A DNA stretch of 64,000 bases from an uncultured Pseudomonadota bacterium (lineage in GTDB: Bacteria > Pseudomonadota > Alphaproteobacteria > Rhizobiales > Xanthobacteraceae): contig CAWEYJ010000023.1 of the NCBI GenBank assembly GCA_963813165.1, positions 60,361 through 124,360 of the forward strand. The letters run 5' to 3'. Numbering within the stretch: position 1 is the stretch's first letter; every line of letters begins with the position of its first letter. The position numbers and the translations under genes were made by a program. The notes below the pieces were generated by a model. That model worked only from the letters and a program-made list of their open reading frames with translations. It ran no database searches and was not told where the DNA came from. Shown piece by piece: positions 19,528 through 48,475 of this stretch.

Positions 19528-20154
19528 ATGACCATCGAACTGCACACCTGGAACACGCCGAACGGCCGCAAGATCAGCGTCGCGCTGGAGGAAATGGGGC
19601 TGCCGTACCGGGTTTTCCCGGTCGACATCACCAAGGGCGAGCAGATGGCGCCGGCATTCCTGGCCATCAGCCCGAACAACAAGATTCCCGCGATCGTCGA
19701 TCCCGATGGGCCGGGCGGCAGCCGCGTCAGCGTGTTCGAGTCCGGCGCGATCCTGCTTTATCTCGGCGAGAAGACCGGCAAGTTCCTTCCCGCACCGCTG
19801 ATCGAACGCATCCCCGTGCTGGAGTGGCTGATGTGGCAGATGGGCGGCTTTGGGCCCATGCCGGGGCAGGTGCATCACTTCATCGCGCTGGAAAACGAGC
19901 AGGACCGCGCCTACGGCTTGAAGCGTTTTATGACGGAGACGCGCCGGCTCTACGGCGTCCTCGATCGCCGCCTCTCGAATCGCGAGTTTGTCGCGGGCGC
20001 CTTGTCGGTCGCCGATTTTGCGATCCTCGGCTGGGCTTGGCGGCATGAGCGCCACAAGGTGTCGTTTGCGGATTTCCCCCATGTCGGCCGCTGGTACGAG
20101 ACGCTGATGGCGCGGCCCGGCGTCAAGCGCGGCATGGATGCCAAGCTGGATTGA
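19528..20154 (+). CDS. Glutathione S-transferase (YfcG/YghU-like)
   Basis: TWNTPNGRK, PNNKIPAI and FESGAIL. Confidence 0.92.
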   Translation: MTIELHTWNTPNGRKISVALEEMGLPYRVFPVDITKGEQMAPAFLAISPNNKIPAIVDPDGPGGSRVSVFESGAILLYLGEKTGKFLPAPLIERIPVLEWLMWQMGGFGPMPGQVHHFIALENEQDRAYGLKRFMTETRRLYGVLDRRLSNREFVAGALSVADFAILGWAWRHERHKVSFADFPHVGRWYETLMARPGVKRGMDAKLD

Positions 20155-20166
20155 ATTTGCTTTCTG

Positions 20167-20294
20167 CTCCCTCGCCCGCTTGCGGGGGAGGGTTGAGGTG
20201 GGGGCCCTTTGACGTGCGAAATACGCGAGACCGTTTCCCCAACCCGCCGCGCTCTATCGAGCGCGTCGACCTCCCCCGCAAGCGGGAGAGGTGA
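20167..20294. repeat. Family B palindromic doublet (intergenic)
   Basis: CTCCCTCGCCCGCTTGCGGGGGAGGG ... CCTCCCCCGCAAGCGGGAGAGG; 29 bp identical to the copy in polA. Confidence 0.9.
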
Positions 20295-20312
20295 AGAAAG
20301 TCAGCGCTCGCT

Positions 20313-20855
20313 TTACGCTTCGTCGCCCGCGAAGCTCGTGATCGCCTGAACATAGCGTTCGAGCGCGTTCCGGAGCGGCTCGGCAAACTCGGCATTGGCC
20401 GCAATGCTGGCAGCGTCATTCGTCGTGCCCAGCAAAGGCAGCGTGATCGACGCGTCGTTGATCAGCCGAGCCGACATCGTCTCCAGCGTGATGGTCAAGG
20501 CTGCCAGCGCATGGGTCGCGCGCGGCGACGTATTGATCAATGCCACCGGCTTGTTCGGAAACTCAAAGCTGCCCACCAGCCAGTCGAGCGCATTCTTCAT
20601 CACGCCAGCGACGCCGCGGGCATATTCAGGGCTGGAGATCAGAAGTCCGTCGGCGGCTCCGATGACAGTACGGAACTCGGCGACCTCCCGGGGAAGGCGA
20701 TCGCCATCGAGGTCGGAATTGAAGAAGGGAAGACTCCCGATTCCTTCAAAGATTTCGATTCTGACGCCGGCAGGTGCGAGGTGACTGGCGGCGTGAAGTA
20801 CCGCGGTGTTGAGCGAGGTGGCGCGCAGGCTGCCGGAAATCGCAATGATGTTCAT
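20313..20855 (-). CDS. NADPH-dependent FMN reductase
   Basis: ISGSLRATSLN and SPEYARGVAGVMKNALDW. Confidence 0.92.
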   Translation of the reverse strand: MNIIAISGSLRATSLNTAVLHAASHLAPAGVRIEIFEGIGSLPFFNSDLDGDRLPREVAEFRTVIGAADGLLISSPEYARGVAGVMKNALDWLVGSFEFPNKPVALINTSPRATHALAALTITLETMSARLINDASITLPLLGTTNDAASIAANAEFAEPLRNALERYVQAITSFAGDEA

Positions 20856-20917
20856 CGATAATCCACGACGAGCGATGGCATGTCAGGTTGCGGCGTTGAG
20901 TTGTCGAAATGGCAAAA

Positions 20918-23900
20918 CTAGTGCGCCTCGTCCCAGTTATTGGCGGCGCGGGCATCGACATGCAGCGGCACCGACAGCAGCACGGCCGGGAACGGCGCGT
21001 CCTGCATGGTGTGCTGCACCACCGGCAAGGTCGCGGCCACCTCTTCGTCGGGCACCTCGAAGATCAATTCGTCATGCACCTGCAGCAGCATCTGCGCGGA
21101 CAGTTTGTGTGCCGCCAGCGCGTCTTCCATCCGCGTCATGGCGCGGCGGATGATGTCGGCCGCGGTACCCTGCAATCGCGCGTTGATCGCCGCGCGCTCG
21201 TTGAAGGACCGGATCGAGGCGTTGGAGGCCTTGATGTCGGGATAATGACACTTCCTGCCGAACAGCGTCTCGACATAGCCGTGCGCCCGGCAGAAATCCC
21301 GCGTCTCGTCCATGTAGGCGCGGATGCCGGGGAAGCGCTCGAAATATTTCTTGATGTAGGCGGAGGCTTCCTCGCGGGGAATGCCGAGCTGGTTGGCAAG
21401 GCCAAAGGCCGAGATGCCGTAGATGATGCCGAAATTGATCGCCTTCGCCCGACGTCGCACCTCGCCCGGCATGTCCTTGACAGGCACGCCGAACATTTCC
21501 GATGCCGTCATGGCGTGAATGTCGAGCCCGTCGCGGAAGGCCTGCTTCAGCACCGGAATGTCGGCGATCTCTGCCAACAGCCGCAACTCGATCTGCGAAT
21601 AGTCCGCCGACACCAGTTTATGGCCGGGAGACGCAATAAAGGCACGGCGGATTTTCCGGCCGTCCTCGGTGCGCACCGGGATGTTCTGCAGATTGGGTTC
21701 GTTCGACGACAGCCGCCCGGTGGTGGTCGCCGCCAGCGCGTAAGTGGTGTGAACGCGATGGGTCTGCGGATGCACATAGGTCGGCAATGCATCGGTATAG
21801 GTCGATTTCAGTTTCGAAACCTGCCGCCATTCCAGAATCTTCTTCGGCAGTTCGTGTCCCTGCTCGGCGAGTTCATCGAGGATCTGCGCGGAGGTCGACC
21901 ACGCCCCGGTCTTGGTCTTGCTGCCGCCGGGCAAGCCCATCTTGCCGAAGATAATGTCGCCGATCTGCTTCGGGCTGCCGACATTGATCGGCTCGCCGGC
22001 GATCTCCTGGATCTCGGATTCGACCCGCGCGGCGGTCTGGGCGAAATCGCCCGACAGACGCGACAGCACCTGGCGGTCGATCGAGATGCCGCGCCGTTCC
22101 ATGCGCGCCAGCACGCCGATCAAGGGCCGCTCCAGCGTCTCATAGACCGCGGTCATGCGCTCGGCGATCAGCCGCGGCTTGAGCACCTGCCATAACCGCA
22201 GGATCACATCGGCGTCCTCGGCCGAATAGGCCGTCGCCTTGTCGATCGCGACCTGATCGAAGGTGAGCTTGCCTTTGCCGCTGCCGGTCAGATCGCCATA
22301 ACTCATGGTGGCATGACCGAGCCATCGCTCGGCCAGCGCATCGAGCCCGTGGGCGTTGCGGCCGGCGTCGAGCGCGTATGACATCAACTGCGCGTCATCG
22401 TGATTGCGCAGCGTGATGCCGGCTTGCGCGAATATCACGGCGTTGAACTTGATATCGAAGCCGATCTTCAGAATGCCGGCCGATTCCAGCAGCGGCCGCA
22501 GCGCGTCGAGGGCGTCTTCGGACTTGATCTGATCGGGCGCGAGGCCCGCATCGAACAATCCGGCCCCACCGCCGGACTGTTTGTGGGCGAGCGGGACATA
22601 ACAGGCATCGTTCGGCGCCAGCGCCAGCGCGATGCCGCAAATGTCGGCCTGCATCGGATTGTCCGAACTCGCCTTGGCTTCGATGGCGAAATGGCCGACA
22701 TCATGCACCCGCGCGATCCAGGCGTTGAGCGCATCGAGGCTGCGGATGGTCTGGTAGCTGTTGCGATCGACCCGAATTTTCCGCGCCGCCTCGGCGCGCG
22801 CGGCGGCGAGCGCCCGCGGGGTGAGGGGCTTGTCGTCTGTTTGAGTTCGGCCTCTCGCCGCATTCGGCGCGCTCCCTCTCCCGCTTGCGGGGGAGGGCGG
22901 GGTGGGGGCGCTTTGATCCGGAAAGAGGCCCCCACCCGCCGGGCTTCGCCCGTCGACCTCCCCCGCAAGCGGGAGAGGTAAGGGAGCATCGCCGTTCGCA
23001 GCGACGCGTCCGCTACCGCTGCTGTTCTTCCCGTCCGCTTCGACATCCGCCGGATCGATCTGCGAATACTCGGCGACGCGGCGGGTCAGCGTCGAAAATT
23101 CCATCGCCTTCAGAAAGGCGATCAGCTTGCGCGCGTCGGGCTCATGCACCGCGAGCTCATCGAGCGGCACCTCCAGCTTGACCTTGTCGTCGAGCAGCAC
23201 CAGTTGCCGCGATATCCGCGCCTTCTCGGCATTCCCGATCAGCGCTTCGCGCCGCTTCGGCTGCTTGATCTCGCCGGAGCGCTTGAGCAGCGTTTCCAGG
23301 TCGCCATATTCGACGATCAGTTGCGCGGCGGTCTTGATGCCGATTCCCGGCACGCCCGGCACATTGTCGGTCGAATCGCCGGCCAGCGCCTGCACCTCGA
23401 CGACCTTTTCGGGAGGCACGCCGAATTTCTCGATCACCTCGGCGATGCCGATGCGGCGGTCCTTCATGGTGTCGAACATGGTCACCTTGTCGGTGACGAG
23501 CTGCATCAGGTCCTTGTCCGAGGAGACGATGGTCGTGGTCGCGCCACGCTCGCCGGCCTCGCGGGCATAGGTTGCGATCAGGTCGTCGGCCTCGAAGCCG
23601 CCTTGCTCGAGGCAAGGCAGATCGAAGGCGCGGACCGCCTCGCGGATCAGCGGAAATTGCGGAATCAGGTCGTCCGGCGCCGGCGGCCGGTGCGCCTTGT
23701 AGTCCGGATAGAGCTTGTTGCGGAAGGTGATTTCCGACTTGTCGAAGATGATGGCGAGGTGGGTCGGCCGGTTATCCGGCGGCATGTCGCGCAGCAGCTT
23801 CCACAGCATGTTGCAGAAGCCGAGTACGGCGTTGACCTGCAATCCGTCGGATTTGCGGTTCAGCGGCGGCAGCGCGTGGTAGGCGCGAAAAATATAGGAG

Positions 23901-23989
23901 GAACCGTCGACCAGAAAGACGTGATCGCCCTTGGCAAGGGCTTTGACGGCGGCAGGCTTTGGAGCGGCTTTTTCGGAGGTTTTCGGCAT
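20918..23989 (-). CDS. polA: DNA polymerase I
   Basis: LVDGSSYIFRAYH, GDSTDNVPG, SADYSQIELR, KAINFGIIYG and LQVHDEL. Confidence 0.98.
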   Translation of the reverse strand: MPKTSEKAAPKPAAVKALAKGDHVFLVDGSSYIFRAYHALPPLNRKSDGLQVNAVLGFCNMLWKLLRDMPPDNRPTHLAIIFDKSEITFRNKLYPDYKAHRPPAPDDLIPQFPLIREAVRAFDLPCLEQGGFEADDLIATYAREAGERGATTTIVSSDKDLMQLVTDKVTMFDTMKDRRIGIAEVIEKFGVPPEKVVEVQALAGDSTDNVPGVPGIGIKTAAQLIVEYGDLETLLKRSGEIKQPKRREALIGNAEKARISRQLVLLDDKVKLEVPLDELAVHEPDARKLIAFLKAMEFSTLTRRVAEYSQIDPADVEADGKNSSGSGRVAANGDAPLPLPLAGEVDGRSPAGGGLFPDQSAPTPPSPASGRGSAPNAARGRTQTDDKPLTPRALAAARAEAARKIRVDRNSYQTIRSLDALNAWIARVHDVGHFAIEAKASSDNPMQADICGIALALAPNDACYVPLAHKQSGGGAGLFDAGLAPDQIKSEDALDALRPLLESAGILKIGFDIKFNAVIFAQAGITLRNHDDAQLMSYALDAGRNAHGLDALAERWLGHATMSYGDLTGSGKGKLTFDQVAIDKATAYSAEDADVILRLWQVLKPRLIAERMTAVYETLERPLIGVLARMERRGISIDRQVLSRLSGDFAQTAARVESEIQEIAGEPINVGSPKQIGDIIFGKMGLPGGSKTKTGAWSTSAQILDELAEQGHELPKKILEWRQVSKLKSTYTDALPTYVHPQTHRVHTTYALAATTTGRLSSNEPNLQNIPVRTEDGRKIRRAFIASPGHKLVSADYSQIELRLLAEIADIPVLKQAFRDGLDIHAMTASEMFGVPVKDMPGEVRRRAKAINFGIIYGISAFGLANQLGIPREEASAYIKKYFERFPGIRAYMDETRDFCRAHGYVETLFGRKCHYPDIKASNASIRSFNERAAINARLQGTAADIIRRAMTRMEDALAAHKLSAQMLLQVHDELIFEVPDEEVAATLPVVQHTMQDAPFPAVLLSVPLHVDARAANNWDEAH
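22872..22981. repeat. Family B palindromic doublet inserted in frame in polA
   Basis: Near-identical to 20167-20294; translated as LPLAGEVDGRSPAGGGLFPDQSAPTPPSPASGRGS. Confidence 0.9.
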
Positions 23990-26009: not shown

Positions 26010-27320
26010 ATGCGCATCGCCATGATTGGCACGGGCTATGTGGGGCTGGTGTCAGGCGCCTGTTTCGCGGATTTCGGCCACCAGGTCACCTGTGTGGACA
26101 AGGACGGCGACAAGATCGCGAGCTTGCGTCGGGGGGAAATCCCGATTTTCGAGCCCGGCCTCGATGCGCTGGTAGCTTCCAATGTGAAGGCCGGGCGGCT
26201 GGGTTTTGCCACCGATCTTGCCGCGCCGGTCGCGGCGGCCGACGCGGTGTTCATTGCCGTCGGTACCCCGTCCCGACGCGGCGACGGCCACGCCGATCTG
26301 AGCTACGTTCATGCCGCGGCGCGCGAGATCGCAACGGCGCTGGATGGCTTCACCGTCGTGGTCACCAAATCGACAGTGCCGGTCGGCACCGGTGACGAAG
26401 TCGAGCGGCTGATTCACGAAGCCAATCCATCGGCCGACGTGGTGGTGGCCTCCAATCCGGAATTTCTGCGCGAGGGTGCCGCGATCCGTGACTTCAAGTT
26501 TCCGGATCGCATCGTGGTCGGCACTTCGGATGAGCGCGCGCGCAAGGTGCTCGGCGATATCTACCGGCCGTTGTCGCTCAACCAGGCGCCGCTGATGTTT
26601 ACCGAGCGTCGCACCGCCGAGCTGATCAAATACGCGGCGAATGCGTTTCTCGCCACCAAGATCACCTTCATCAACGAGATCGCGGATTTGGCCGAAAAGG
26701 TCGGCGCCGACGTGCAGGAAGTCGCGCGCGGCATCGGGCTCGACAATCGCATCGGCTCGAAATTCCTGCATGCCGGTCCCGGCTTCGGCGGCTCCTGCTT
26801 TCCAAAGGATACCCGCGCGCTGGTCAAGATCGCGCTCGATCACAACGTTCCGTTGCGGATCGTGGAGGCCGTGCTGGCGGTCAACGACAACCGCAAGCGC
26901 GCGATGGCGCGCAAGGTCGCAGGCGCGGCGGGCGGCAGCCTGCGCGGCAAGACCATCGCCGTGCTTGGCCTGACCTTCAAGCCCGACACCGACGACATGC
27001 GCGAGGCGCCGTCGATTCCGCTCGTGACCGGGCTGCTCGACATGGGCGCGAAGGTGCGCGCGCACGACCCGGTCGGGATGGAACAGGCGCGGCGCGAATT
27101 GCCCGATATCGAATATTGCGACGATCCCTACGCTTGCGTTCGCGGCGCGGACGCCATGGTGGTGGTGACCGAATGGGTGCAATACCGTACCCTCGACCTT
27201 GAGCGCCTGAAGAGCGAACTGGCGCACCCCGTGGTCGTCGACCTGCGCAATATCTATCGCCCGGAAGAGATGACGGCGCTCGGCTTTATTTATGAAAGCG
27301 TCGGGCGCGGGACGATTTGA
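26010..27320 (+). CDS. ugd: UDP-glucose/GDP-mannose 6-dehydrogenase
   Basis: IGTGYVGL, SNPEFLREG, GFGGSCFPKD and GLTFKPDTDDMR. Confidence 0.96.
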   Translation: MRIAMIGTGYVGLVSGACFADFGHQVTCVDKDGDKIASLRRGEIPIFEPGLDALVASNVKAGRLGFATDLAAPVAAADAVFIAVGTPSRRGDGHADLSYVHAAAREIATALDGFTVVVTKSTVPVGTGDEVERLIHEANPSADVVVASNPEFLREGAAIRDFKFPDRIVVGTSDERARKVLGDIYRPLSLNQAPLMFTERRTAELIKYAANAFLATKITFINEIADLAEKVGADVQEVARGIGLDNRIGSKFLHAGPGFGGSCFPKDTRALVKIALDHNVPLRIVEAVLAVNDNRKRAMARKVAGAAGGSLRGKTIAVLGLTFKPDTDDMREAPSIPLVTGLLDMGAKVRAHDPVGMEQARRELPDIEYCDDPYACVRGADAMVVVTEWVQYRTLDLERLKSELAHPVVVDLRNIYRPEEMTALGFIYESVGRGTI

Positions 27321-27341
27321 GTTAGCTTGTAACGGCGTTTT

Positions 27342-27433
27342 CCGTCATGGCCGGGCTTGTCCCGGCCATCCACGTCTTGTTCTCTGCTTGCTCAGGAAAG
27401 ACGTGGATGCCCGGCACAAGGCCGGGCATGACG
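27342..27433. repeat. Family A CGTC-tagged REP doublet
   Basis: CCGTCATGGCCGGGCTTGTCCCGGCCATCCACGTC ... GACGTGGATGCCCGGCACAAGGCCGGGCATGACG. Confidence 0.92.
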
Positions 27434-27447
27434 ATTTGGTGAGAAAA

Positions 27448-30051
<2,604 letters not shown>

Positions 30052-47601: not shown

Positions 47602-48306
47602 CTAAGTCAGCCCCTGCAGAAACCCCGTCAGATCGTCGGTGACGTGATCGACATGGACGGCGTCGCGGCCTTCCAGCTCCCAATCCTCGCGCACGACTTC
47701 CTCGGTGCCGTCGGGCACCACCAGCACCGTCGTCATGCCGAGCTGGTGCGGCACCACGAGGTTGCGCGCCAGATCCTCGAACATCGCCGAGGTCAGGGGA
47801 TCGACGCCATGAAGCCCGAGGAATTTCTGATAGGTCTGCGGCGCCGGCTTCGGTTCAAGCTCGGCGGCGATGATGTCGAACACCGCCTCGAAATGCGACG
47901 CGATGCCGAGCCGCTGCAAGACCTTGTCGGCATGGTCGGTCGAACCGTTGGTCAGGATCAGCTTGCGTCCGGGCAGCCTGGCAATGGCAGCGCCCATCGC
48001 AGGATTTGGCTGCAGCGGCGAATGATCGATCTGGTGGACATAGGCGAGATAGTCGTCGGCACGCACGCCATGCTCGGTCATCATGCCGCGCATGGTGGTG
48101 CCATAGCGGAGGTAGTAGTCCTTCTGGATCCTTCTGGCTTCGTCCGCCGGGACCTTGAGGTAGGCGCTGACGAACTCACCGATCCGAGCATCGACCTGCT
48201 GCCACAGATTGACGTGATGCGGATACAGCGTGTTATCGAGATCGAATACCCAGGTGTTGACGTGGGTGAAGGAACGCCTTGGGTCCTTTTTCGATGCGGT
48301 TATCAT
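47602..48306 (-). CDS. Pyrimidine 5'-nucleotidase (HAD superfamily)
   Basis: [17 protein letters not shown] and MFEDLARNL. Confidence 0.92.
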
Positions 48307-48319
48307 GGCTCTTTCTTTA

Positions 48320-48423
48320 CCTCTGCCGTAGGGAGAGGTCGGCGCATCGCGCCGGGTGAGGGGTTACAGCGTAACGATAGGTCGCAGCCCCTCACCCCGA
48401 CCCTCTCCCAATGGGAGAGGGAG
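48320..48423. repeat. Family B palindromic doublet (intergenic)
   Basis: CCTCTGCCGTAGGGAGAGG...GGTGAGGGG ... CCCCTCACC-CCGA-CCCTCTCCCAATGGGAGAGGG. Confidence 0.82.
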
Positions 48424-48475
48424 CGTGCAGTACCTCTGTGAGGTGTTCCGCTTGATATCTGACTTAAGATAATCA

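What the first reader, a model, noticed from the sequence alone, without database searches (positions are those of the whole stretch)
22872..22981. Palindromic repeat translated in frame inside DNA polymerase I
About 110 bp of polA, in the linker between the 5'-3' exonuclease and the 3'-5' exonuclease domains, is a family B doublet. It shares 29 identical bp and a 25/26 match with the intergenic copy at 20167. The reading frame is preserved and adds a Pro/Gly-rich peptide. Established parallel: Rickettsia palindromic elements (RPEs) inserted in frame in proteins. Inference: this family creates new protein sequence in housekeeping genes of a free-living lineage.
Basis: partly seen in the sequence, partly recalled or inferred. 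Interest (0 to 1): 0.7.

Follow-up and report, generated by a model that had tools for sequence, protein, structure and literature searches.

The report
In-frame hairpin repeat in polA linker
A 117-base hairpin-forming repeat of a dispersed Bradyrhizobium repeat family is read through as 39 floppy residues in the tether between two domains of DNA polymerase I; it is real, but an example of a phenomenon already described, even for this gene and this spot.

Summary
Window 22871-22987 (minus strand, polA residues 335-373) is a copy of a repeat family with about 58 loci in this 6.4 Mb Bradyrhizobium-like genome. It folds into one long hairpin and stays in frame. It lies in a 125-residue gap between Pfam domains that AlphaFold2 predicts as disordered.

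It is not a recent insertion. Intact copies sit at the same place, in the same frame and orientation, in at least four related species. A sister clade carries a decayed version.

The outer stem shows no compensatory changes. The 28-base right arm is nevertheless more conserved than fourfold-degenerate sites, so some DNA-level force acts on it, either gene conversion or selection on the unit palindrome.

The genome has no RAYT transposase.

Four more in-frame copies lie in uvrD, mutS, an ATP-dependent DNA ligase and hrpB. Congeners show clean empty sites for mutS and the ligase.

Di Nocera et al. 2013 (PMC3733652) already reported REPs inside replication and repair genes of free-living bacteria. 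Their list includes a REP dimer at residues 338-367 of Rhodopseudomonas palustris DNA polymerase I.

Verdict: a new member of a known kind, of modest interest.

The parts
20918..23989 (-). polA, DNA polymerase I, 1023 aa; host gene of the element
   Evidence: ORF list and translation. Pfam finds 5_3_exonuc_N/5_3_exonuc at 24-286, DNA_pol_A_exo1 at 412-607 and DNA_pol_A at 640-1021. Orthologues are 60-92% identical.
22871..22987 (-). In-frame repeat element, a hairpin doublet of 117 nt (39 codons), PolA residues 335-373
   Evidence: Inverted repeat I1. Fold of -103.6 kcal/mol, z -8.8. nhmmer family profile hit at C23 83230-83344, which is window 22870-22984, 86.6 bits. Peptide. AF2 gives pLDDT below 50 for residues 324-386.
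22875..22896 (.). A-end unit palindrome CCTCTCCCGC-TT-GCGGGGGAGG. This is the 3' arm in the polA reading direction and encodes PSPASGRG.
   Evidence: It is conserved at 26-28 of 28 bases in 8 of 9 orthologues, above fourfold-site identity (0.64-0.83) in 7 of 9 comparisons.
22897..22908 (.). Inner G-run arm (GCGGGGTGGGGG), which pairs with the C-run at 22929-22940
   Evidence: MFE structure and family alignment.
22909..22928 (.). Hairpin loop. In the polA frame it encodes (G)LFPDQS(A). It is shorter than, and different from, the conserved ~37-nt loop of the dispersed copies.
   Evidence: Alignment of 10 full copies from the genome, alignment of polA orthologues and the GDLF motif survey.
22941..22951 (.). 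Mini-hairpin GGGC-TTC-GCCC, present only in the B-end arm
   Evidence: All 4 of its pairs show changes on both sides among 10 orthologues.
22957..22978 (.). B-end unit palindrome CCTCCCCCGC-AA-GCGGGAGAGG. This is the 5' arm in the polA reading direction and encodes PLPLAGE.
   Evidence: It is decayed to LPLAEKVDE in many metagenomic orthologues and deleted in L001/L002.
20163..20299 (+). Intergenic full copy of the same family, about 620 nt beyond the polA stop
   Evidence: nhmmer hit of 100.9 bits at C23 80523-80659.
28934..29046 (+). Copy of a sister subfamily inside hrpB. It is in frame with the C-terminal part of the gene.
   Evidence: The N-terminal ORF 27274-29067 has DEAD and Helicase_C domains. 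The frame change lies upstream of the hairpin, at about 28860-28880.
48312..48425 (.). Intergenic copy of a related family with the same architecture but another core (CTCTCCC-AAT-GGGAGAG), upstream of a minus-strand HAD-type gene
   Evidence: nhmmer hit of 29.7 bits; sequence, fold and ORF context.

Best explanation
The segment is an old, vertically inherited copy of a REP-like nested-hairpin repeat. The repeat is a doublet of a 22-bp unit palindrome with G-run and C-run inner arms, and one arm carries an extra mini-hairpin. The copy lies in frame in the intrinsically disordered tether between the 5'-nuclease and the Klenow part of DNA polymerase I. It is most probably read through as 39 Pro/Gly/Ser/Ala-rich residues that the enzyme tolerates. 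The following are shown: family membership, frame, linker position, predicted disorder, orthology across species, decay in a sister clade, absence of a RAYT gene, and further in-frame copies in uvrD, mutS, a DNA ligase and hrpB, with empty sites in congeners. The following are inferred. The element entered the linker in an ancestor of this Bradyrhizobium subclade. It has no role in the protein. Its unit palindromes are held near the family consensus by a DNA-level process, most likely short-tract gene conversion from the dispersed copies. Once an arm has diverged too far or is deleted, the rest drifts. The concentration of intragenic copies in DNA-repair genes repeats what was reported in 2013 and remains unexplained.
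For: Family: the core occurs 5 times in the window against 0.01 expected. The genome has 47 half-sites and 58 profile loci. Ten full copies share asymmetric ends and a conserved loop. The same core is the majority form in four sister genomes, and dozens of copies occur in congeners. Linker and disorder: Pfam leaves a gap at 287-411. The alignment is hypervariable there. AF2 gives pLDDT 27-32 over residues 324-386 with no secondary structure. Orthology and age: intact copies with the same frame, orientation and place occur in G010, G017 (=L003), G020 and L151. Fourfold-site identity of polA to these is only 0.70-0.77. Decay: L001, L002 and G021 form one clade (SH-aLRT 97) in which the left palindrome is deleted and the right one is mutated. 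Metagenomic orthologues show graded decay. No selection for the long hairpin: the 21-pair outer helix has no pair changed on both sides, and 8 pairs depart only by mismatches. DNA-level conservation: the 28-nt right arm is 26-28/28 identical in 8 of 9 orthologues, including those whose left arm has decayed. Binomial P against fourfold sites is 5e-5 to 4e-3 in 7 of the 9 comparisons. True insertions elsewhere: mutS gains 12 aa, with 12 congeners empty. The ligase gains about 60 aa, with 3 congeners empty. uvrD is empty in other families of the order. Literature: PMC3733652.
Against: No clean empty polA allele was found. The insertion is therefore inferred from family membership and from other genes, not seen directly in polA. 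The hairpin loop carries a G(D)LF motif. Arm-less orthologues as distant as Xanthobacter also have this motif, which is awkward for a simple single insertion of arms plus loop. The excess conservation of the right arm, and the compensatory changes in the mini-hairpin, could equally mean selection on a nucleic-acid function, so 'neutral passenger' may be too simple. The nine pairwise comparisons share ancestry and are not independent. Gene conversion itself was not demonstrated.
Confidence: 0.8

Rival explanations
1. The hairpin is functional at the nucleic-acid level inside polA. A very stable mRNA or DNA structure between the two halves of the gene could pause ribosomes for domain-wise folding, serve as an RNase or attenuation site that uncouples the 5'-nuclease from the Klenow part, or bind a REP-recognising host protein. 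On this view selection keeps it.
For: The fold is -103.6 kcal/mol, z -8.8. The right arm is more conserved than fourfold sites. The mini-hairpin shows changes on both sides at 4 of 4 pairs. Intact copies persist in several species despite fourfold-site identities of only 0.64-0.83.
Against: The outer 21-pair helix shows no compensatory change and is simply lost in many lineages (L001, L002, G021, L152, L155, L158, L161, L181). The right arm stays conserved even where its partner is gone, so the long hairpin is not the conserved unit. Many Bradyrhizobium polA genes have no arms at all. There are no expression data.
Confidence: 0.1
2. The polA linker is a hotspot that is hit repeatedly and independently. 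On this view the copies in different species, and the different REP families seen there, are separate insertions rather than one old copy.
For: R. palustris BisB18 carries a complete hairpin of a sister subfamily at the same place (L007). L004 carries a half-element of that subfamily. R. palustris BisA53 carries an unrelated CGTC-3 dimer at residues 338-367 (PMC3733652 supplement). The uvrD and ligase sites also hold two or more unrelated families in different congeners. The mutS insert has the same junction in two genomes that are not each other's closest relatives.
Against: Within the window's subclade, all copies share orientation, frame, the asymmetric B-then-A order, and a polA-specific loop (CCTSTTY..., encoding GLF) that differs from the loop of the dispersed copies. 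The decayed forms align base for base with the intact ones. This fits one ancestral copy for the subclade. Independent hits remain likely for the more distant lineages.
Confidence: 0.25
3. The arms were recruited around a functional linker motif. The conserved G(D)LF in the loop would be a beta-clamp-binding motif, and the repeat-derived Pro/Gly flanks would be kept because they present it as an exposed peptide. The insert would then be exapted protein sequence.
For: GDLF is conserved in the linker across Nitrobacteraceae and Xanthobacteraceae. Rhodoplanes has QLSLGL and Pseudolabrys has QLDFG at the same place. These resemble the QL[SD]LF and QLxLxL consensus quoted in 10.64898/2026.09.19.751633. 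The region is disordered.
Against: The window itself has GGGLF, without the Q or the aliphatic second position. The flanks are hypervariable at the protein level. Arm conservation extends to synonymous positions, which protein selection does not explain. No binding test was run.
Confidence: 0.07
4. The similarity is chance or compositional: a GC-rich, Pro/Gly-coding linker that only looks like the repeat.
For: The genome is 62% G+C, and the linker is rich in Pro/Gly codons.
Against: There is a 29-nt identical run and a 26/27 match to a copy 2.7 kb away. The core occurs 5 times against 0.01 expected. The profile hit is 86.6 bits, E = 4e-24.
Confidence: 0.01

Closest known systems
Intragenic REPs of free-living bacteria (Di Nocera, De Gregorio and Rocco 2013, PMC3733652), in particular the CGTC-3 dimer in R. 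palustris BisA53 DNA polymerase I (RPE_4821, residues 338-367 of 1012)
   Same: A short palindromic repeat, organised as an inverted dimer, is read in frame in the same interdomain linker of the same enzyme in the same bacterial family. Intragenic copies are concentrated in replication and repair genes (polA, uvrD, uvrB, ligase). The CGTC class also has no dedicated transposase.
   Different: The sequence family differs. Here the stems are 10 bp and all G/C-rich, the loops are 2 nt, and there are extra G-run/C-run inner arms and a mini-hairpin. CGTC units have 8-9 bp stems starting with A/T pairs and 4-5 nt loops. This core was not found in the searchable literature.
Rickettsia palindromic elements (RPE; Ogata et al. 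2000, as cited in PMC3733652)
   Same: Palindromic repeats of about 100-150 bp inserted in frame in protein-coding genes without destroying them. They lie in surface or linker regions and include DNA-repair genes.
   Different: Rickettsia is an obligate intracellular lineage with a reduced genome, and the sequences are unrelated. Here the host is a free-living soil Bradyrhizobium-like bacterium with a 6.4 Mb genome. Most copies (at least 50 of 58) are intergenic.
REPINs mobilised by RAYT transposases (Bertels and Rainey 2011, PMC3116915)
   Same: An inverted doublet of a REP unit forms a long hairpin. There are tens of copies per genome. Copies are inherited vertically and persist at orthologous sites for long periods.
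   Different: No Y1/RAYT gene (PF01797) is present in this 96%-complete genome. The two ends are not equivalent, because only one carries the mini-hairpin. There is no GTAG tag.
Br-REP1 and Br-REP2 of Bradyrhizobium japonicum USDA 110 (Hahn et al. 2016, PMC5082802)
   Same: Palindromic repeats of the Bradyrhizobium/Rhodopseudomonas lineage, found in 3'-UTRs and intergenic regions.
   Different: The consensus sequences differ: CCGGAATCTCGAGATTCCGG and CGAGATTCCGGG...CCCGGAATGA. Those repeats were not reported inside genes. The peptides VIPG...PGMT seen in uvrD of congeners look like that kind of unit, not like the window's family.

Membership tests
REP / REPIN-RAYT system | Short palindromic unit present in many dispersed, mostly intergenic copies | tested here: met
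   47 core half-sites and 58 profile loci in 6.39 Mb. Only 5 loci lie in Pfam-confirmed genes.
REP / REPIN-RAYT system | Two units in inverted orientation forming one long hairpin (REPIN) | tested here: met
   Arms are 96% complementary, and the fold is -103.6 kcal/mol. Ten full doublets are aligned.
REP / REPIN-RAYT system | A cognate RAYT (Y1 tyrosine transposase, PF01797) gene in the same genome | tested here: not met
   A six-frame search of the whole assembly found 0 matches, while the control genomes gave hits. The assembly is 96% complete, so a gene on missing sequence cannot be fully excluded.
GTAG- or CGTC-tagged REP superfamilies (Di Nocera 2013) | Terminal GTAG or CGTC tetranucleotide next to an 8-9 bp stem with a 4-5 nt loop and a short CCA-like tail | tested here: inconclusive
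   The B end reads CGTCGAC directly before the palindrome (window 20264-20270, 22951-22957). The A end has no such tag, stems are 10 bp, and loops are 2 nt (for the family definition). The published consensus figures are not held, so no direct alignment was possible.
Intragenic REPs in replication and repair genes (Di Nocera 2013) | REP unit or dimer lying wholly within an ORF of a known protein, with the frame kept | tested here: met
   polA, uvrD, mutS and ATP-dependent ligase all meet this. In hrpB the copy is in frame with the C-terminal part only.
Rickettsia palindromic elements | Sequence membership in RPE-1 to RPE-10 and residence in Rickettsia | tested here: not met
   The host is a Nitrobacteraceae/Bradyrhizobium-like bacterium. 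Rfam gave only sub-threshold chance hairpin hits. No direct comparison with RPE consensus sequences was possible.
Rickettsia palindromic elements | In-frame insertion that adds a peptide to an otherwise intact protein | tested here: met
   The ORF is open at 1023 aa with all four Pfam domains intact. The insert lies in a disordered segment.
MITE | Terminal inverted repeats derived from an IS, and a target-site duplication | tested here: not met
   At the one junction with an empty allele that was read at base level (mutS), about 17-21 nt are replaced by the palindrome and nothing is duplicated. No parent IS was sought.

The most novel reading that the evidence does not exclude
Palindromic repeats in this lineage may be fixed preferentially at a few sites in DNA-replication and repair genes. 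Every in-frame intragenic copy found here lies in such a gene: four in Pfam-confirmed reading frames (polA, uvrD, mutS, ATP-dependent ligase) and one in hrpB, where only the N-terminal part of the gene has Pfam support. The polA, uvrD and ligase sites are occupied by two or three unrelated repeat families in different congeners. That would point to a directed process rather than mere tolerance. One candidate is insertion or gene conversion coupled to the activity of these enzymes. Another is second-order selection, in which repeat-tagged repair alleles hitch-hike as mild mutators. In polA, the arms also bracket a conserved G(D)LF peptide that could be an unrecognised beta-clamp-binding motif of alphaproteobacterial Pol I.
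Probability: 0.12. Interest if true: 0.7.

Novelty: new member of a known kind. Interest (0 to 1): 0.3.

Why it matters
The case adds a well-documented example to a puzzle left open in 2013: why are palindromic repeats that get inside genes found so often in DNA-repair and replication genes? It includes a time series from intact to decayed copies across about twenty orthologues. It also shows that one arm of the repeat is held constant at synonymous positions while the long hairpin is not. That narrows the candidate forces to gene conversion or recognition of the unit palindrome. In practice, such inserts inflate linker lengths, produce spurious 'hypothetical' peptides, and can mislead orthologue alignment and annotation in Bradyrhizobium genomes.

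Tried and rejected
- Rfam scan of window 20000-23200 gave only sub-threshold miRNA-like hairpin hits, taken as chance.
- A whole-genome search for a RAYT/Y1 transposase found none.
- A literature search for the core sequence gave only unrelated primer or sequence matches. Br-REP1 and Br-REP2 are different sequences.
- The first DNA alignment of relatives used wrong locus coordinates and was useless. It was redone via blastn coordinates.
- One search was a malformed query.
- Long ORFs spanning other copies (C8 201975, C19 63721, C5 43881, C14 322786) looked like coding context. They have no Pfam family and an arginine-rich shadow-frame composition, so I treated them as non-coding.
- Copies near the 5' ends of uvrB and an ABC permease may lie upstream of the true starts, so I did not count them as intragenic.
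- I considered whether the hrpB frame break was a homopolymer error inside the hairpin. The frame change lies upstream of it.
- Earlier notes of this scan were looked up. There were none on this genome, and no close look-alike by sequence.
Full report
**The observation**

polA occupies window 20918-23989 on the minus strand and encodes 1023 residues. Pfam finds the 5'-3' exonuclease domains up to residue 286 and the 3'-5' exonuclease domain from residue 412.

The two arms, 22875-22899 and 22954-22978, are 96% complementary. The region folds as one hairpin of -103.6 kcal/mol, z = -8.8 against dinucleotide shuffles.

The claimed similarity to the intergenic copy near 20167 is correct. There is a 29-nt identical run (22951-22979 = 20264-20292) and a 26/27 match at the other end. 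The 17-nt core occurs five times in the window, where 0.01 is expected.

The frame stays open, and the element reads APLPLPLAGEVDGRSPAGGGLFPDQSAPTPPSPASGRGS. An AlphaFold2 model built on 28 orthologues gives pLDDT 27-32 and no secondary structure for residues 324-386, while the flanking domains score 85-95.

**The family**

The window is part of a 6.39 Mb, 62% G+C assembly. The closest PolA relatives are soil MAGs, Bradyrhizobium and Rhodopseudomonas palustris.

The core has 47 half-sites in the genome. A profile built from ten full copies finds 58 loci.

Full copies are 110-160 bp and have two unequal ends. The A end is the palindrome CCTCTCCCGC-TT-GCGGGGGAGG followed by GGGTTGGGGTGGGGG. The B end is the same palindrome followed by TCGAC, a mini-hairpin (short or long form) and GCGGGTGGGGG.

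Most dispersed copies share a conserved loop of about 37 nt. Single units also exist. The one in mutS is a 46-nt perfect palindrome.

The same core is the majority form in four sister genomes, and related copies occur by the dozen in congeners.

The genome has no Y1/RAYT transposase gene, and Rfam has no matching family. The sequence is not Br-REP1 or Br-REP2. The core was not found in the searchable literature.

**History of the polA copy**

The linker is hypervariable among orthologues, so there is no clean indel. At the DNA level, however, several related species carry the same element. It sits in the same place, frame and orientation, with the B end first in the reading direction. These are G010, G017 (identical to L003), G020 and the metagenomic L151.

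Fourfold-degenerate sites of polA are only 0.64-0.83 identical between the window and the nine compared orthologues, and 0.70-0.77 for the four with intact copies. The copy is therefore old.

L001, L002 and G021 form one clade (SH-aLRT 97). In L001 and L002, aligned base for base, the left palindrome is deleted and the right one is mutated, while the inner part still aligns. G021 was classed as decayed from its linker sequence and its low identity to the window in the element region.

Metagenomic orthologues show every stage of decay. L153 has point changes in both arms. L152, L158, L161 and L181 have a left arm decayed to LPLAEKVDE and an intact right arm. L155 lacks the left arm. Many other Bradyrhizobium have neither arm.

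R. palustris BisB18 carries a complete hairpin of a sister subfamily at the same spot (L007). The published list of intragenic REPs records an unrelated CGTC-3 dimer at residues 338-367 of R. palustris BisA53 PolA.

The best reading is one ancestral copy for the window's subclade. Independent hits or in-situ turnover probably account for the more distant lineages.

**What conserves it**

I counted pairs on ten orthologues. The 21-pair outer helix has no pair with changes on both sides, and eight of its pairs depart only by mismatches. The long hairpin as such is therefore not under detectable selection.

The four pairs of the mini-hairpin all show changes on both sides.

The 28-nt right arm is 26-28/28 identical to the window in eight of nine orthologues. 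These include orthologues whose left arm has decayed. It exceeds fourfold-site identity in seven of nine comparisons, with binomial P from 5e-5 to 4e-3; the comparisons are not independent.

Protein-level selection cannot hold synonymous positions, and pairing with the partner arm is not required. The conserved unit is therefore the single palindrome. Short-tract gene conversion from the dispersed copies is the simplest explanation, and it is an inference. Recognition of the unit by some host factor is the alternative.

**An awkward detail**

The loop of the polA copies is not the family loop. It encodes G(D)LF, a motif also present in arm-less orthologues out to Xanthobacter. Rhodoplanes has QLSLGL and Pseudolabrys has QLDFG at the same position.

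These resemble the beta-clamp-binding consensus quoted in a 2026 preprint. That preprint reports a Pol I clamp motif only in Mycobacteriales, and at another site.

Outgroups also keep what look like relics of the left palindrome (PPLGGEPD) directly before DLF. Either the insertion is much older than the subclade, or the arms have been renewed around an older motif. I could not decide between these.

**Other in-frame copies**

Of the 58 loci, five lie in recognisable genes, in frame:
- polA.
- uvrD, between motifs DEYQD and GDDDQS.
- mutS, just before the Walker A loop.
- An ATP-dependent DNA ligase, in the N-terminal domain.
- hrpB in this window, where the hairpin at 28934-29046 is in frame with the C-terminal part and a frame change lies upstream of it.

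Copies near the starts of uvrB and an ABC permease may be upstream of the true start codons. Other spanning ORFs have no Pfam family and look like shadow frames.

Empty sites exist. Twelve congeners have mutS without the 12 extra residues. Three have the ligase without about 60 residues. uvrD is empty in other families of the order, while all sixteen congeners carry inserts of at least two unrelated repeat families.

At the mutS junction the palindrome replaces about 17-21 nt, with no target duplication.

**Comparison with what is known**

Di Nocera, De Gregorio and Rocco (2013, PMC3733652) described GTAG- and CGTC-tagged REPs inside genes of free-living bacteria. [quoted passage not shown] They suggested the insertions sit in flexible linkers and speculated about mutator effects. 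Their supplement lists the R. palustris PolA dimer at the same linker position.

The Rickettsia elements are the older analogy. REPINs share the doublet architecture, but their defining RAYT is absent here.

Earlier notes of this scan report the same kind of thing in other genomes. I used them only as a pointer and did not test them.

**Verdict**

This is a real, tidy, in-frame repeat in the polA linker. It is old rather than recent and is almost certainly tolerated rather than functional. It belongs to an apparently unnamed Bradyrhizobium repeat family, and it exemplifies a phenomenon already published for this very gene. It is a new member of a known kind, of modest interest.

Two threads are worth keeping. 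One is the unexplained restriction of intragenic copies to repair genes, with reuse of the same sites. The other is the possible clamp-binding motif in the hairpin loop.

Noticed in passing
window 22922-22933 (PolA residues 353-356, GGLF): The only motif conserved across the otherwise hypervariable PolA linker is G(D)LF. It is found from Bradyrhizobium to Xanthobacter. Rhodoplanes has QLSLGL and Pseudolabrys has QLDFG in its place. It resembles a beta-clamp-binding motif, and it sits in the loop of the repeat hairpin. A 2026 preprint reports a Pol I clamp motif only in Mycobacteriales, at a different site.
   Followed up: partly
window 27274-29680 (hrpB), hairpin 28934-29046: hrpB is split over two frames: the N-terminal part ends at 29067, and the C-terminal frame is open from 28742. 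A sister-subfamily hairpin is in frame with the C-terminal part. The frame change lies at about 28860-28880, upstream of the hairpin. It may be a real frameshift or an assembly error.
   Followed up: partly
G000 C17:59538-59599 (L239) and G011 (L240): mutS carries a single 46-nt palindrome just before the Walker A loop (CDLSPLPPPYPPPQAGEGSREGAGQIWLITGPNMAGKST). It replaces about 17-21 nt with no target duplication. The junction is the same in two genomes that are not nearest relatives, and twelve congeners are empty.
   Followed up: yes
G000 C14:277196-277334 (L101, L236) and L102-L116: The uvrD site between motifs DEYQD and GDDDQS holds repeat-derived inserts in all 16 congeners examined. They come from at least two unrelated families: SPRLRGEV...PLPASGARE and VIPGR...AHPGMT. 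The site is empty in other families of the order.
   Followed up: yes
G000 C8:395756-395905 (L126) and L127-L143: An ATP-dependent DNA ligase carries a full doublet in its N-terminal domain. Congeners are either empty (L137, L138, L140), or carry the same family (L127), another family (L128-L132), or a single unit (L133, L141).
   Followed up: yes
window 22941-22951 and alignment A3 columns 36-39/66-69: The mini-hairpin inside the B arm (CGGGC-GAA-GCCCG versus CGCGC-GAA-GCGCG, and a long form with 21 extra nt) shows changes on both sides at all four pairs among polA orthologues. The long and short forms differ by exactly seven codons.
   Followed up: partly
G000 C7:35315-38602 (L237): The uvrB reading frame runs on for about 250 residues of out-of-frame-looking, arginine-rich sequence after the Pfam UvrB domain (ends at aa 841). 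This suggests a frameshift near the 3' end. Two repeat units flank the gene, at C7 35715 and 38279.
   Followed up: no
window 48312-48425: This is a copy of a related repeat with the same nested architecture but a different core (CTCTCCC-AAT-GGGAGAG). It lies just upstream of a minus-strand HAD-type hydrolase gene (47602-48306). The plus-strand ORF that reads through it is a shadow frame.
   Followed up: partly
window 20163-20299: This intergenic full copy, about 620 nt beyond the polA stop, shares the loop-end motif TCAAAGSGCCCCCACC with the polA copy. Most dispersed copies lack that motif. Repeat copies also lie 3-3.6 kb from the polA copy in G017 and G020, so it may be orthologous there.
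   Followed up: no
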